Assembly (NCBI RefSeq): GCF_024298765.1
Contig: NZ_CP101210.1
From: Escherichia coli
Lineage (GTDB): Bacteria > Pseudomonadota > Gammaproteobacteria > Enterobacterales > Enterobacteriaceae
Length of the DNA: 64,000 nucleotides
Reading direction: 5' to 3' (one strand)
In this document: one piece after another, positions 39,001 to 45,000 of the stretch
Position numbering within the stretch: the first letter of the stretch is position 1
How the letters are laid out: every line of letters begins with the position of its first letter
Made by a program: the position numbers

Positions 39001-42000
39001 ACTATTAAAGGAATTATGCGTCTTATCTGCGCATTATTAAAATCAATAGTAAATTCGCTCCTGCCATTATGGCTGGGGCTTTTTATTTTCAGGTGAAAAC
39101 ACATGAGGGGCTGTACATTACTCTTATTTTCCGAAGCCCCTTTCTTACGCGAACAGGAGGTTGCTGTCATAACAGCTTACCGCAATGTGTTTATCCAGGA
39201 TGACCCGGGAATGCATTTCCGTTGGGTTATCCGCAACGCGGAAGGTCAGCGACGCTGGCGCTGCCGGAATTCTGAACCCGATGCCGGAAAGGTGCTTAAT
39301 ACGCGGCTCGCCAGTGACGGTCCTCTAAGACAATAAACGTCATTCATTTCACCCATCAGGCTGCGTCTTCTCCGGGAGACGTGGCTTTTTCATTTATTAC
39401 ACCAGTAAATCTTAACCACCGATAAGGAGCAAAGTATGCGATTAGCCAGTTGTTTTGGTTATGCTGCGAACCAGATACGCCGTGACCGTCCACTGACACA
39501 TGAAGAGCTGATGCACCATGTGCCGGGGATTTTCGGGGAAGAGAAACACACGTCCCGAAGCCAGAACTATACGTACATCCCCACCATCACCGTACTGGAA
39601 AGCCTGCAGCGGGAAGGCTTTCAGCCATTCTTCGCCTGCCAGACCTGTGTGCGCGACCCGGGCCGCCGGGGATACACAAAACACATGCTGCGCCTGCGCC
39701 GTAACGGAGAGATAAACGGAGAACATGTCCCTGAAATTATTCTGCTCAACTCTCATGACGGTACCTCCAGCTACCAGATGCTGCCGGGTTACTTCAGGTT
39801 CGTCTGCCAGAACGGATGCGTCTGTGGTCAGTCTCTGGGGGAAGTGCGTGTTCCGCACCGGGGAAATGTGGTGGACAGAGTCATTGAAGGGGCTTACGAG
39901 GTGGTGGGCGTGTTTGACCGGATAGAGGAGATGCGTGATGCCATGCAGTCGCTGATTCTGCCGCCACCGGCACGCCAGGCGCTGGCACAGGCGGCACTGA
40001 CTTACCGTTATGGTGACGAACATCGGCCCGTCACCACCGCCGACATTCTGACGCCACGACGCCGGGAGGATTACGGTAAGGACCTGTGGAGTACTTATCA
40101 GACCATCCAGGAGAATATGCTGAAAGGCGGGATTTCCGGTCGCAGTGCAAAAGGAAAACGTATCCACACCCGTGCCATTCACAGCATCGACACCGATATT
40201 AAGCTCAACCGCGCATTGTGGGTAATGGCAGAAACGCTGCTGGAGAGCCAGCGCTGATGCAGCATGTCCCTGAAGGCGTGATTCAGGCACCAGAATCACC
40301 CGACGCCCCGGAGGCGCTGCCGGGGTGTCGTTCCATTTCTGATGATGACCTGTGCGCCTGGTGTACCCGTCTGCTTTACCGTCCCGGAGAAATCAGTCTG
40401 TGCAGACTGAGTACAGGCAATGGCATCTGGCCATCCGTCTGTGACCGGAACGGTTACGCGTACGGCTGTCCGGAATTTCAGCCGAATATCATTCATCCCT
40501 GATATTACCGGGTCTCACGGTCAGTGATGAACGTGATGTTGCCAGCTCCCGACCTTTACTCCCTCTCATTTATTCACATTACAAGGATTTCATACATGAA
40601 AACATTGTCTCAGAACACCACCTCTTCGGCCTGTGCACCGGAGACTGGCCTGCAACAACTGGTTGCCACCATAGTCCCTGATGAACAGCGCATCAGCTTC
40701 TGGCCGCAGCATTTTGGCCTCATTCCACAGTGGGTGACCCTGGAGCCCCGTGTCTTCGGCTGGATGGACCGTCTGTGCGAAAACTACTGCGGTGGTATCT
40801 GGAATCTGTACACCCTGAACAACGGCGGGGCATTTATGGCCCCTGAACCGGATGACGATGATGACGAAACATGGGTACTGTTCAATGCCATGAACGGTAA
40901 CCGCGCTGAAATGAGCCCGGAAGCCGCCGGCATTGCCGCCTGTCTGATGACGTACAGTCATCACGCCTGCCGTACGGAGTGTTATGCCATGACGGTTCAT
41001 TATTACCGTCTGCGGGATTACGCCCTGCAGCATCCGGAATGCAGCGCCATTATGCGCATCATCGACTGAATGGAGGCAGGGACAATGCAGCAGCTTTCCT
41101 TTCTGCCCGGAGAAATGACAACCAGAGAGCGCAGCCTCATTCTGCGGGCCCTGAAAACCCTGGACCGCCATCTTCATGAACCCGGCGTGGCCTTCACCTC
41201 CACCCGTGCGGCACGGGAATGGCTGATTCTGAACATGGCGGGACTGGAGCGTGAAGAGTTCCGGGTGCTGTATCTGAATAACCAGAATCAGCTGATTGCC
41301 GGTGAAACCCTCTTCACCGGCACCATCAACCGCACGGAAGTCCATCCCCGGGAAGTGATTAAACGCGCCCTGTATCACAATGCCGCAGCCGTGGTGCTGG
41401 CACATAATCACCCGTCCGGTGAAGTCACACCCAGCAAGGCAGACCGGCTTATCACGGAACGTCTGGTACAGGCACTGGGCCTGGTGGATATCCGGGTGCC
41501 GGACCATCTGATAGTCGGTGGCAGCCAGGTTTTCTCCTTTGCCGAACATGGTCTGCTTTAACCCGTCACAACCACATCACACCTGTTTTCACTTTTATCT
41601 TCTGTCTTCAGAGGTATCCCATTATGAAAATCATCACCCGTGGTGAAGCCATGCGTATTCACCAACAGCATCCTGCATCCCGTCTTTTTCCGTTCTGTAC
41701 CGGCAAATACCGCTGGCACGGCAGCACTGAAACGTATACCGGTCGTGAAGTGCAGGATATTCCCGGTGTGCTGGCCGTGTTTGCTGAACGCCGTAAGGAC
41801 AGTTTTGGCCCGTATGTCCGGCTGATGAGCGTCACTCTGAACTGAGTCAGTAAGGGCATTCTGATGAGCAGAATTATCACCACCACCGTGTATACACTGC
41901 ATGAGCTATCCTCCACCGCACAGGAAAAAGCCCGCGACTGGTACCGTCAGCATCATGCTGACAGCAACTGGTATGAAAACGTGTATGAGGACTTCAGGGA

Positions 42001-45000
42001 GGTCTGTGGCATTTTCGGAATTGACCTCCGCCAGCGCGTTTTCCGGCTCAGCAACGGCAGGTTTATGGAAGAGCCGTGCATCTGGTTCAGCGGATTCTGC
42101 AGCCAGGGGGACGGAGCCTGTTTTGAAGGGCGCTGGCACTGGCAGCCAGCGACACCCCGGAAAATCAGGGAATATGCCCCTCAGGACCGTGAGCTTCATC
42201 GTATCGCGGATGCCCTGCAGGCGGTACAGAAGCGTAACTTCTGGCAGTTACAGGCTGAAATCAGTCACCGGGGACGTTACTGCCATCCGTACAGCATGGA
42301 TATCACCGTCACCCGGAACAGTCCGACTGGTCAGGCACTGACAGCCGATGCGGAAGCCGCTGTCAGCGAAGCCCTGCGCGACCTGGCCTTCTGGCTGTAC
42401 CGCCAGCTGGAAAACGAGTACGACTGGCTGACCTCAGACGCCGCTGTAGATGAGGCCATTCACATCAATGCATATACCTTCACCGAAGCCGGTCTCCACG
42501 CCGGCTGACCTGTCATCGTTAAACTATCATTCACCGATTTTCTGTGAGGACTTTATCGTGTCAGACACGCTCCATGAAACAAATTATCCCGACGACAACA
42601 ACGACCGCCCCTGGTGGGGGCTACCCTGCACCGTGACGCCCTGTTTCGGGGCACGTCTGGTGCAGGAGGGCAATCAGTTGCATTACCTTGCCGACCGCGC
42701 CGGTATCAGAGGGCAGTTCAGCGACGCGGATGCATACCATCTGGACCAGGCTTTTCCACTGCTGATGAAACAACTGGAACTCATGCTCACCATCGGTGAA
42801 CTGAATCCCCGCCATCAGCATACCGTCACGCTGTATGCCAGAGGGCTGACCTGCGAAGCCGACACCCTCGGCAGCTGTGGTTACGTTTATATGGCTGTTT
42901 ATCCGACACTGGCACCCGCAACCACCTCATAACCCCGAATATCTCACCTTTAGCACTACCAGTTACAGAGAACTTAAGATGAAAACATTACCTGACACAC
43001 ACGTACGGGAGGCATCGCGCTGCCCGTCTCCCGTCACCATCTGGCAGACACTGCTCACCCGACTGTTGGACCAGCATTACGGCCTCACACTGAATGACAC
43101 ACCGTTCGCTGATGAACGTGTGATTGAGCAGCATATTGAGGCAGGCATTTCACTGTGCGATGCGGTGAACTTTCTCGTTGAAAAATACGCACTGGTACGT
43201 ACCGACCAGCCAGGATTCAGCGCTTGTACCCGTTCTCAGTTAATAAACAGTATTGATATCCTCCGGGCCCGCCGGGCAACCGGCCTGATGACCCGCAGCA
43301 ACTACAGAATGGTGAACGACATCATCCGGGGTGAACATTCGGAGGCGAAACGATGAAACTGACTCTGACGCTCGAAGCAGACAGCGTTAACGTGCAGGCA
43401 CTGAACATGGGGCGAATTGTCGTTGACGTCGATGGTATTGACCCCGCTGAGTTGAATAATAAGGTCGCTGAAAACGGTTATTCACTCCGCGTGGTGGATG
43501 CTCCCGAACAGCAGACAACCGACTCTCCACCACCGTTTACTGCCCTTACCGACATACGTTCGTTGCAGTACCGCACATATCACGGAAAAGGACAACGCCT
43601 GGCTGTACTCACTGTCACATCAGACGAATGACTTCGGCGAATCAGAATGGATTCATTTTACAGGTACCGGTTATCTGTTACGTACTGATGCGTGGTCGTA
43701 TCCGGTTCTGCGGCTTAAACGTCTTGGCCTGTCAAAAACGTTCCGTCGTCTGGTTGTCACTCTCATCCGGTGTTATGGCGTCGGTCTCATTCATCTGGCT
43801 GCCAGTGCAGGATGTCTGCCGGGCCTGCCCACTTTCGACTGGTAACTAGGAACGACATGACATCATTAATCACGGAAACGGCGCTGGAAATTCTGATTGC
43901 CTAAATAGCTGCGCTTAATACCGCTACACTTTTGCCAGCCCATGTTTGCCTCCGGGGAATGGGCTAACGGTTTCCATAAAATGGCGAACTTTTTTCAACA
44001 GTTGCCACATTGAGCGGCACTGATGATTACGCGTTATTGTGTCGTGAAGTGCCTGCCATAGCCGTTCAACATGATTCACCCATGGCGAGTAAACCGGCTG
44101 ATAAATGACCCTGAACTTCGGGTTCTCCTTCAGCCAGCTCTGTGTTTCCCGGCTTTTGTGGATAATGTAGTTGTCCACGATCAGCGTGATGGTTTTCGCC
44201 CGACGGTATGTCGCTTTAAGCCGTTTCAGCAGGCTGATGAACAGCGCCGAACTTTTGCTGTTGCCGCCCACATAGCTGGCTTTACCTGTCCCGGCGTGAC
44301 CACCCGTTTTTGCTGTCCGCGCAGTTGCCAGTCCGCACCGATTTTGGGATTAAGATGGATATCCACTTCATCTTCATAAAAGACCGGATGCTCTGCGCAG
44401 CATTCGTCCAGTGCTTTATGGATTGCTGCCATCTTTTCATCTTTATGCGGGTCACGGATACGCAGAGTTGGCGCAGCCCTTCGCCACACAATCCCCGCAG
44501 ACGGCAACCAGCGGCGAACGGTTCCGGCATTTAACTGGCAACCGGTTATCTCATTGATTTTTATTGCCAGCAGTTCTGTACTCCAGCGTGAACGCTGGTA
44601 GCCAAAGTCGCCGGGAGAATGTTTTACCAGCTCACGTAACAGTGTGCAGATATGCTCAAACGGCCAGCGACGGGCACGCCCGGCAGGTAATGATTTCAGT
44701 CCCTCAACACCCGACTGCGTGAACCAGTTAATCCAGCGTCCAACAGAGGAACGGGCGCAGCAGAGCGTTCTGGCAACGTCGCTGACACGGTCGCCCCGGT
44801 GCAGCATCAGCATGGCAGTCAGTCTGCGGGCATAATTTTTATCGTGTGTTTTATGGATGGCTTTCTGCATCAGGCGTCGTTCGTCACGGGAAATTGGTGC
44901 TATGATCGGCATTGCTCAGTCCGGTTGGTGATTTGTTTTGATTTGGCGATTGATCAGATCGCACAATCCGGGCTGAGTTCCCTCAAAGTGATCTACTATT

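What the first reader, a model, noticed from the sequence alone, without database searches (positions are those of the whole stretch)
41864..42508. 214-aa ORF between the DUF987 gene and the antitoxin gene
Canonical CP4 modules as I recall them go from the DUF987 gene more or less directly to the antitoxin. Here a 214-aa ORF (MSRIITTTVYTLHELSSTAQEKARDWYRQHH...) fills that gap. It could be an additional antitoxin-associated or anti-defence gene.
Basis: inference. Interest (0 to 1): 0.3.

Follow-up and report, generated by a model that had tools for sequence, protein, structure and literature searches.

The report
Conserved unknown-function gene beside CbeA antitoxin
The 214-codon reading frame is a real, well-conserved gene of a large uncharacterised family carried by plasmids, integrated elements and phages; it is an original part of this E. 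coli island operon (K-12 lost it by deletion), and nobody yet knows what it does.

Summary
The ORF at 41864-42508 (+) is real. It has an ATG start, an AAGGG ribosome-binding site 7 nt upstream, and dN/dS of 0.16-0.24 between E. coli alleles. [quoted passage not shown]

It is not an insertion. K-12 CP4-44 keeps its start codon and first 8 codons as a scar between yeeT and cbeA, so the 'canonical' arrangement is a ~645-bp deletion derivative.

The family is large (3611 clusters at 50% identity). It lies among ParB/ArdC/DUF932/RadC and methylase-helicase genes on alphaproteobacterial plasmids and ICEs, and in small-gene accessory regions of lytic phages. No neighbouring gene is conserved across these settings.

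In Enterobacteriaceae the gene always touches cbeA. It sits upstream of it in E. coli, and between antitoxin and toxin in Klebsiella and Salmonella.

The AlphaFold model is confident (pLDDT 96) but matches no solved structure. There is no Pfam, NCBIfam or PADLOC match. An SGFxSQGDGA hairpin is invariant even in jumbo-phage homologues.

Best reading: a stand-alone accessory protein of mobile-element establishment/anti-defence operons, not an antitoxin. The mechanism is inferred only. The gene is ordinary in occurrence and unknown in function.

The parts
41864..42508 (+). 214-aa ORF 'X' (DUF8835 / phrog_5162 family)
   Evidence: ORF listing and sequence. It is 100% identical to a RefSeq CDS, WP_000086759.1, in E. 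coli Nissle. It matches phrog_5162 at E 7e-37 over residues 2-210. dN/dS is 0.16-0.24. AF2 pLDDT is 96.
41852..41856 (+). Shine-Dalgarno-like AAGGG, 7 nt before the ATG
   Evidence: Read directly from the sequence.
42089..42118 (+). Codons for S76-A85 (SGFCSQGDGA), the most conserved motif of the family
   Evidence: G77, F78, Q81, G82, D83, G84 and A85 are invariant across 13 diverse members, including jumbo-phage homologues at 27% identity. They are >=90% conserved in 65 members. In the model the motif is the loop of a beta-hairpin between strands 73-75 and 85-87.
41854..41888 (+). Segment retained in K-12 CP4-44 as a deletion scar (end of the ribosome-binding site, ATG and first 8 codons)
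   Evidence: It aligns 32/35 with the K-12 yeeT-cbeA spacer (L090 2542-2576). The alignment resumes at window 42534.
42511..42544 (+). 34-nt stretch of the X-cbeA spacer that is absent in a common E. coli allele
   Evidence: Alignment with L091. The short-spacer allele has a 15-nt gap between the two genes (L102). With an added TGA-to-TTA change it gives 342-343-aa X::CbeA read-through products.
41624..41845 (+). Upstream gene: DUF987 (YeeT-like)
   Evidence: Pfam PF06174, E 3.7e-39; RefSeq annotation.
42558..42932 (+). Downstream gene: type IV antitoxin CbeA/YeeU
   Evidence: Pfam PF06154, E 5.8e-54; RefSeq annotation.
42979..43356 (+). Toxin CbtA/YeeV
   Evidence: Pfam PF06755, E 2.3e-63; RefSeq coordinates.
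39436..41561 (+). Upstream same-strand genes of the module: DUF932 (39436-40257), 81-aa hypothetical (40257-40502), antirestriction (40596-41069), RadC/JAB (41085-41561)
   Evidence: Pfam; RefSeq annotation. No + strand promoter-like or terminator-like site lies between DUF987 and cbeA.

Best explanation
X is a genuine protein-coding gene of a large family of uncharacterised mobile-element proteins (Pfam DUF8835 in recent RefSeq annotation; phrog_5162). It is an original member of the same-strand operon DUF932 - antirestriction - RadC - DUF987 - X - cbeA - cbtA of CP4-like integrated elements. The K-12 arrangement without it is a deletion derivative.

The protein is a compact, mostly acidic alpha/beta domain whose fold matches no solved structure. 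Its most conserved feature is a glycine-rich beta-hairpin (SGFxSQGDGA), accompanied by conserved Y139/H141, R172 and Y179.

Inferred mechanism: X is a stand-alone establishment or anti-defence-type accessory factor. It would be made early from the incoming element or phage and act alone on a conserved host target or small molecule through that conserved site. It is not the antitoxin its database name suggests. Its constant adjacency to cbeA in enterobacteria is best read as shared operon membership.

Shown: the gene is real, conserved, widely distributed and ancestral in the module, with an orphan fold and no obligate partner. Inferred: when it acts, what it targets, and that the motif forms a binding or catalytic site.
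For: Real and under purifying selection.

Ancestral in the module: a K-12 scar retains the start codon and 8 codons. The ORF occurs at 2880 places in 2000 genomes, against 12895 DUF987 places.

Company it keeps. In 80 loci from other genomes, nearly all alphaproteobacterial, the typical order is DUF2958/ParB/ArdC/DUF932/RadC/DUF6878 - X - Strawberry-notch-like methylase-helicase - Toprim - YAcAr. In Tistrella it lies about 1.9 kb upstream of, and on the same strand as, the nikA-like/relaxase genes. In phages it sits in arrays of small unknown genes, including terminal-repeat regions of Caulobacter jumbo phages. Iyer et al. 2017 (PMC5512222) treat these same neighbour families as early-phase effectors of conjugative elements and phages.

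No neighbour is conserved across phage and ICE settings, so X appears to work alone.

The family is acidic: median pI 4.8, median net charge -15.

A cluster of invariant polar and glycine residues survives at 27% identity.

Not an antitoxin family: no RelB/Phd/CbeA Pfam or NCBIfam hit. The CbtA/CbeA pair persists without X in K-12.
Against: No experiment or characterised homologue supports any activity.

Amino-acid identity of about 60% between Alpha- and Gammaproteobacteria is unusually high for an arms-race protein.

In three enterobacterial lineages X touches cbeA on either side, and in Salmonella its start overlaps the cbeA stop (ATGA). This hints at a closer tie to the toxin-antitoxin pair than mere co-residence.

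Some family members are basic (net charge up to +8), so acidity is not a defining trait.

I could not inspect model coordinates, so it is not shown that the conserved residues cluster in space.
Confidence: 0.5

Rival explanations
1. X is a third component of the enterobacterial CbtA/CbeA module: a modulator, co-antitoxin or chaperone-like helper that tunes CbeA or CbtA.
Confidence: 0.2
2. X is an enzyme, for example a hydrolase using S80, H141 and D83, or a binder of a phosphate-containing nucleotide signal. It would destroy or sequester a host immune messenger or a nucleotide. This is a specific version of the anti-defence idea.
For: S76, S80, Q81, D83, Y139, H141, R172 and Y179 and four glycines are invariant or nearly so down to 27% identity. 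Conservation is high with saturated dS, as expected for a constrained active or binding site. X needs no partner gene.
Against: X resembles no known hydrolase, sponge or nucleotide-binding fold. The GFxSQG stretch sits in a beta-hairpin, not in the strand-turn-helix 'nucleophile elbow' of alpha/beta hydrolases. The spatial arrangement of the residues was not checked.
Confidence: 0.15
3. X is a DNA-mimic antirestriction protein of the ArdA/Ocr type that blocks restriction enzymes by charge mimicry.
For: The family is acidic on the whole (median net charge -15). X lies next to antirestriction genes.
Against: The window protein carries only -8 (pI 5.6), and some members are basic (+8). The conserved features are a glycine-rich hairpin and His/Arg/Tyr, not acidic rows. 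There is no structural match to ArdA, Ocr or KlcA, all of which are in the PDB, and no Pfam ArdA or Antirestrict hit.
Confidence: 0.07
4. X is a decaying remnant with no present function in E. coli.
For: X is often deleted, frameshifted in some strains (L096) or has lost its stop codon. The island around it carries other pseudogenes.
Against: dN/dS of 0.16-0.24 among intact E. coli alleles. Full-length 214-aa alleles dominate the database hits. The family is conserved across classes and in lytic phages.
Confidence: 0.05

Closest known systems
Antirestriction and establishment genes of conjugative elements (ArdA, ArdB/KlcA, ArdC, ParB-like nucleases, RadC), i.e. the 'early-phase effectors' of Iyer et al. 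2017
   Same: Same operons, same strand and the same kinds of mobile element. X lies within a gene or two of ArdC, RadC, DUF932 and antirestriction genes in E. coli and in Alphaproteobacteria. It is a small soluble protein, mostly acidic, and is often lost.
   Different: X has no sequence or fold similarity to any of them. No activity has been shown. It is more conserved than typical antirestriction proteins.
[quoted passage not shown]
   Same: Only the name, and a position next to a toxin-antitoxin pair.
   Different: No HMM match to RelB, PhdYeFM or PHD_like. X is 214 aa and fully ordered, not a short DNA-binding domain with a disordered tail. No RelE/ParE partner. In the papers searched, the name refers to true RelB proteins unrelated to X.
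Three-gene toxin-antitoxin modules with an added helper (e.g. toxin-antitoxin-chaperone systems)
   Same: A third gene in the same operon and directly adjacent to the antitoxin. In Salmonella and Klebsiella it lies between antitoxin and toxin.
   Different: The CbtA/CbeA pair exists widely without X. X occurs mostly without any toxin-antitoxin pair. X has no SecB-like or other chaperone fold beyond a marginal Aha1-N resemblance.
Phage anti-defence sponges and signal-degrading enzymes (Tad1, Tad2, Acb1, Acb2, Apyc1)
   Same: Single small proteins in phage accessory regions with a strongly conserved pocket-like motif and no partner gene.
   Different: X has no structural similarity to any solved example. 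Ligand binding is untested.

Membership tests
phrog_5162 (phage protein family, function unknown) | Full-length HMM match | tested here: met
   E 7.2e-37; residues 2-210 against profile positions 2-195 of 201.
[quoted passage not shown] | Sequence membership as assigned by RefSeq/PGAP | tested here: inconclusive
   Alleles 90-95% identical at the DNA level carry these names in RefSeq. The exact window protein is labelled 'hypothetical protein'. The Pfam copy available has no DUF8835 model, and no Pfam family matched at E<=1.
RelB/Phd-type antitoxin | Match to the RelB, PhdYeFM_antitox or PHD_like models | tested here: not met
   The window protein matched no Pfam family at E<=0.01, or at E<=1 when scanned as the first member of A1, and no NCBIfam family at E<=0.01. 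Among the 65 family members no antitoxin family was among the 25 most frequent of the 47 weak (E<=1) hits.
RelB/Phd-type antitoxin | Short protein with a DNA-binding N-terminus and a flexible toxin-binding tail, next to a RelE/ParE-type toxin | tested here: not met
   214 aa, with all residues at pLDDT >=70. The neighbours are DUF987 and CbeA.
CbeA/YeeU type IV antitoxin | PF06154 match | tested here: not met
   X gives no hit, whereas the next gene scores E 5.8e-54.
Known antirestriction families (ArdA, ArdB/KlcA 'Antirestrict', ArdC) | HMM match or fold similarity to the solved structures | tested here: not met
Known anti-phage defence proteins (PADLOC-DB) | HMM match | tested here: not met
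   0 families at E<=1.
Leading-region / establishment gene set of conjugative elements | Located in the same-strand cluster with ArdC/ParB/RadC-type genes near the relaxase or oriT | tested here: met
   Met in related loci: Tistrella L002, the Thioclava plasmid, and the 80 genome-scan loci, nearly all alphaproteobacterial. The window's element has no relaxase in view, so for the window itself this rests on homology of the module.
Leading-region / establishment gene set of conjugative elements | Expressed early in the recipient and improves establishment | not testable with these tools
   Needs conjugation and expression experiments.
Three-component toxin-antitoxin module | The third gene is required for, or physically engages, the toxin-antitoxin pair | tested here: inconclusive
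   Adjacency to cbeA holds in all enterobacterial lineages examined. However, the pair persists without X, and AF2 on the natural fusion shows no docking.

The most novel reading that the evidence does not exclude
X is the founding example of a new protein fold used by plasmids, ICEs and phages as a single-gene counter-defence or host-takeover factor, acting through the invariant SGFxSQGDGA/Y-x-H/R/Y site. Alternatively, in enterobacteria it is a previously unrecognised third player that modulates the type IV CbtA/CbeA cytoskeleton toxin system.
Probability: 0.3. Interest if true: 0.6.

Novelty: already known. Interest (0 to 1): 0.3.

Why it matters
The gene is present in over a third of complete E. 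coli genomes, including the probiotic Nissle 1917 (100% match), and in hundreds of other species and many phages. Yet it has no known function and no structural relative. [quoted passage not shown] K-12, the reference for CP4-type modules, is a deletion derivative, so the textbook operon is incomplete. If X proves to be an anti-defence factor or a modulator of CbtA/CbeA, it would add a new fold to the mobile-element toolkit. For now it is a catalogued family of unknown function, not a discovery.

Tried and rejected
- Pfam, NCBIfam and PADLOC scans of X returned nothing. A Pfam scan of all 65 aligned family members gave only scattered noise.
- PDB sequence searches with the single protein and with the family profile returned nothing below E 0.75.
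- AF2 of the natural X::CbeA read-through protein, run to look for domain docking, gave pTM 0.61 and a disordered linker. It is uninformative.
- The 'fusion' alleles as Rosetta-stone evidence: they turned out to be a stop-codon loss on a short-spacer allele, cbeA keeps its own GTG start, and PGAP calls X a pseudogene there. I treat them as weak evidence only.
- Literature searches for the RefSeq name, DUF8835, phrog_5162, the protein accession and the yeeS/yeeT/yeeU context found nothing on this family. The generic name in papers refers to RelB. A family with that name in the supplement of Samuel et al. 2024 cannot be tied to X.
- A search for a conserved partner gene in phage contexts found none.
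- An apparent tandem duplicate upstream of X in 16 alphaproteobacterial loci was an artefact of my own ORF caller.
- CP4-57 and CP4-6 were checked for a deletion scar. They are too diverged and no scar is visible.
- Names of homologues in the phage branch were checked; all are 'hypothetical'. The phage annotations 'RNA polymerase binding protein' (CP14) and 'YeeU-like antitoxin' (K64-1) rest on no visible evidence.
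Full report
OBSERVATION

The window carries an ATG-to-TGA open reading frame of 214 codons at 41864-42508 on the + strand.
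- It begins 18 nt after the stop of a DUF987 gene (41624-41845; PF06174, E 3.7e-39).
- It ends 49 nt before the GTG start of a CbeA/YeeU type IV antitoxin gene (42558-42932; PF06154, E 5.8e-54). A CbtA toxin gene follows.
- An AAGGG lies 7 nt upstream of the ATG, and GC3 (0.67) matches the neighbouring genes.
- No promoter-like or terminator-like site lies on the + strand between DUF987 and cbeA. The simplest reading (inference) is that the genes are co-transcribed.
- The region is 100% identical to E. coli Nissle and M8, where the ORF is an annotated CDS (WP_000086759.1, 'hypothetical protein'). It lies in an island next to tRNA-Asp and dnaQ/rnhA.

IS IT A GENE?

Yes.
- It has 2895 database relatives at E<=1e-3 and matches 3611 cluster representatives at 50% identity, 1961 of them at E<=1e-10.
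- Nei-Gojobori dN/dS between the window allele and two other E. coli alleles is 0.16 and 0.23.
- Against Salmonella and alphaproteobacterial homologues, synonymous sites are saturated while the proteins remain about 62% identical.
- AlphaFold2 with a 65-sequence alignment gives a single compact alpha/beta domain: mean pLDDT 96, pTM 0.88, no disordered segment.

HOW COMMON IS IT, AND IS IT AN 'EXTRA' GENE?

Among 5426 complete E. coli genomes:
- The ORF is found at 2880 places in 2000 genomes.
- The DUF987 gene is found at 12895 places in 4799 genomes.
- So roughly one DUF987-type module in four or five carries it.

But the yeeT-cbeA spacer of K-12 CP4-44 still holds ATGAGCAGAATTATCGCCACTACC, the ORF's start codon and first eight codons. 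Window 41854-41888 aligns with it at 32/35, and similarity resumes at window 42534. K-12 is therefore a ~645-bp deletion derivative, and the ORF-containing form is ancestral for this lineage. Junction sequences matching this K-12 X-deleted arrangement at 80% coverage or more occur in 3751 genomes. CP4-57 and CP4-6, which have a shorter antitoxin form, are too diverged to show a scar.

WHAT FAMILY IS IT?

- No Pfam, NCBIfam or PADLOC model matches. Scanning all 65 aligned members against Pfam gives only noise.
- PHROGs places it in phrog_5162, function unknown (E 7e-37).
- Sequence and profile searches of the PDB find nothing.
- The RefSeq 'antitoxin' name is generic. In the literature it denotes true RelB proteins, and X meets none of the RelB/Phd criteria tested.

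CONSERVED FEATURES

Across 13 members, reaching down to 27% identity and including jumbo phages 121Q, K64-1 and Av-05:
- G77, F78, Q81, G82, D83, G84 and A85 are invariant.
- S76, S80, Y139, H141, R172, Y179 and F206 are nearly invariant.

In the model the SGFxSQGDGA stretch is the loop of a beta-hairpin. The family is mostly acidic (median pI 4.8, median net charge -15). The range runs from -31 to +8, and the window protein is only -8.

WHERE ELSE DOES IT OCCUR?

1. Alphaproteobacterial chromosomes and plasmids.
   - A scan of one genome per species found at least 489 loci. The best 80, nearly all alphaproteobacterial, are about 60% identical to the window protein.
   - My own gene calling and clustering plus Pfam give a recurrent order: DUF2958, ParB-like, ArdC (ArdcN + MPTase-PolyVal), DUF932, RadC, DUF6878, X, then a 1450-aa Strawberry-notch-like methylase-helicase (AAA_34 + Helicase_C_4), DUF7146-Toprim and YAcAr.
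   - In Tistrella, X lies about 1.9 kb upstream of, and co-oriented with, the nikA-like/relaxase genes.
   - There are 111 plasmid records with a match, 41 of them conjugative.
   - These neighbour families are the ones Iyer et al. (PMC5512222) describe as early-phase effectors of conjugative elements and phages.
2. Lytic phages.
   - There are 90 phage records: Caulobacter and Brevundimonas jumbo phages (often inside the terminal repeats), the 121Q/PBECO4, RaK2 and K64-1 groups, Vequintavirinae, Acinetobacter Saclayvirus and Pseudomonas Lanavirus.
   - X always sits in runs of small unknown genes.
3. Other islands.
   - One example is integrase - N6-methylase - X - AddAB-like nuclease/helicase.

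No neighbour is shared between these settings, so X appears to work without a dedicated partner.

RELATION TO THE TOXIN-ANTITOXIN PAIR

In Enterobacteriaceae X is always directly next to cbeA, but the order differs:
- DUF987-X-CbeA-CbtA in the window and in a second E. coli lineage whose X is only 64% identical.
- DUF987-CbeA-X-CbtA in Klebsiella michiganensis.
- DUF987-CbeA-CbeA-X-CbtA in Salmonella enterica, where the X start overlaps the cbeA stop (ATGA) behind a GGAGG.

Proteins of 342-343 aa that join X to CbeA also exist. They arise on a common allele lacking 34 nt of the spacer (window 42511-42544), which leaves a 15-nt gap and two genes (L102). A TGA-to-TTA stop loss is then added. cbeA keeps its own start, and PGAP calls X a pseudogene there. 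At most 45 genomes match the stop-loss junction at >=99%. AF2 on this natural fusion shows two separate domains with a disordered linker (pTM 0.61).

The adjacency is striking, but three things weigh against X being part of the toxin-antitoxin mechanism:
- Of the 80 genome-scan loci, only the Salmonella one has cbeA or cbtA nearby.
- The phage loci examined carry no toxin-antitoxin neighbour.
- The pair persists without X in K-12 and thousands of other genomes.

MOST LIKELY MECHANISM

I favour (confidence about 0.5) that X is a stand-alone accessory protein of the establishment/anti-defence gene sets of mobile elements. It would be co-transcribed here with DUF987 and cbeA-cbtA and act on a conserved host target or small molecule through the invariant hairpin and its His/Arg/Tyr companions.
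- Shown: gene reality, conservation, distribution, ancestry in the module, orphan fold and lack of an obligate partner.
- Inferred: early timing, the target, and that the motif forms a site.

Rivals:
- A third component modulating CbtA/CbeA (0.2).
- A specific enzymatic or sponge version of the anti-defence idea (0.15).
- A DNA mimic (0.07).
- A functionless remnant (0.05).

NOVELTY AND VERDICT

The ORF is ordinary in occurrence and already catalogued (RefSeq CDS, DUF8835, phrog_5162), so the finding itself is not new.

What remains open is the function of a very widespread, strongly conserved mobile-element protein with no structural relative, and the meaning of its persistent adjacency to cbeA. 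Interest is 0.3. The most novel reading not excluded is a new-fold anti-defence factor or a hidden third player of the CbtA/CbeA system, at about 0.3 probability.

Noticed in passing
L090 (E. coli K-12 NC_000913.3) 2542-2576, corresponding to window 41854-41888: The K-12 CP4-44 yeeT-cbeA spacer contains the start codon and first 8 codons of the 214-aa gene. This unannotated deletion scar shows that the reference arrangement is derived.
   Followed up: yes
window 42450-42557: The cbeA reading frame is open for 108 nt upstream of its GTG start, back to an ATG at 42450 inside the 3' end of X (listed as a 160-aa ORF). A 34-nt spacer indel (42511-42544) and stop-loss alleles give X::CbeA read-through proteins in some strains.
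   Followed up: yes
L108 4293-5645 (Salmonella enterica) and L104 4610-5996 (Klebsiella michiganensis): In these genera the homologue of X sits between antitoxin and toxin. Salmonella also has two tandem CbeA genes, the first only about 32% identical to the window's CbeA (measured in the S. diarizonae locus L066).
   Followed up: partly
window 43353-43845: The DUF5983 (YeeW-like) gene after cbtA is split into two overlapping ORFs, with the N-terminal and C-terminal Pfam domains in different frames. RefSeq marks it frameshifted in Nissle.
   Followed up: no
window 43924-47325: IS debris follows the module: a frameshifted IS630 transposase (43924-44912) and IS66-family tnpC/tnpB/tnpA pieces (45060-47325). 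The tRNA-Asp lies about 1.5 kb closer than in Nissle CP148105, which fits with the window lacking the ISEc45 copy annotated in that record.
   Followed up: partly
window 32452-36817: A same-strand trio encodes a dynamin-family protein, an RdcB-family protein and a patatin-like phospholipase, located upstream in the same island. It looks like a candidate defence or membrane-remodelling cassette and was not examined.
   Followed up: no
window 36907-38985: Several ORFs of 85-212 aa with hydrophobic, signal-peptide-like N-termini, three of them annotated 'hypothetical' in Nissle, lie between the patatin gene and DUF905. They were not searched.
   Followed up: no
window 40257-40502: An 81-aa hypothetical gene between DUF932 and the antirestriction gene overlaps the DUF932 stop by 1 nt. 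It is conserved (57% identity) at the same position in Salmonella diarizonae (L066). It has no family assignment.
   Followed up: partly
window 48618-48694 and 56843-56919: Two tRNA-Asp(GTC) genes with identical Rfam scores. The first is at the island boundary and the second is next to a complete rRNA operon (5S 56973-57088, 23S 57189-60094, 16S 60532-62073, with tRNA-Ala and tRNA-Ile in the spacer).
   Followed up: partly
L010-L089 (genome-scan loci, nearly all alphaproteobacterial), genes 1-3 positions upstream of X: Three conserved small proteins recur just upstream of X and have no Pfam match. In my clustering they are cluster 6 (~185 aa), cluster 7 (~55-95 aa) and cluster 8 (~140 aa).
   Followed up: partly
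L009 3992-4591 (Acinetobacter phage CP14) and L008 4001-4612 (Klebsiella phage K64-1): The phage homologues of X are annotated 'RNA polymerase binding protein' and 'YeeU-like antitoxin'. No evidence for either name was found, and the CP14 region's other labels look like positional transfers.
   Followed up: partly
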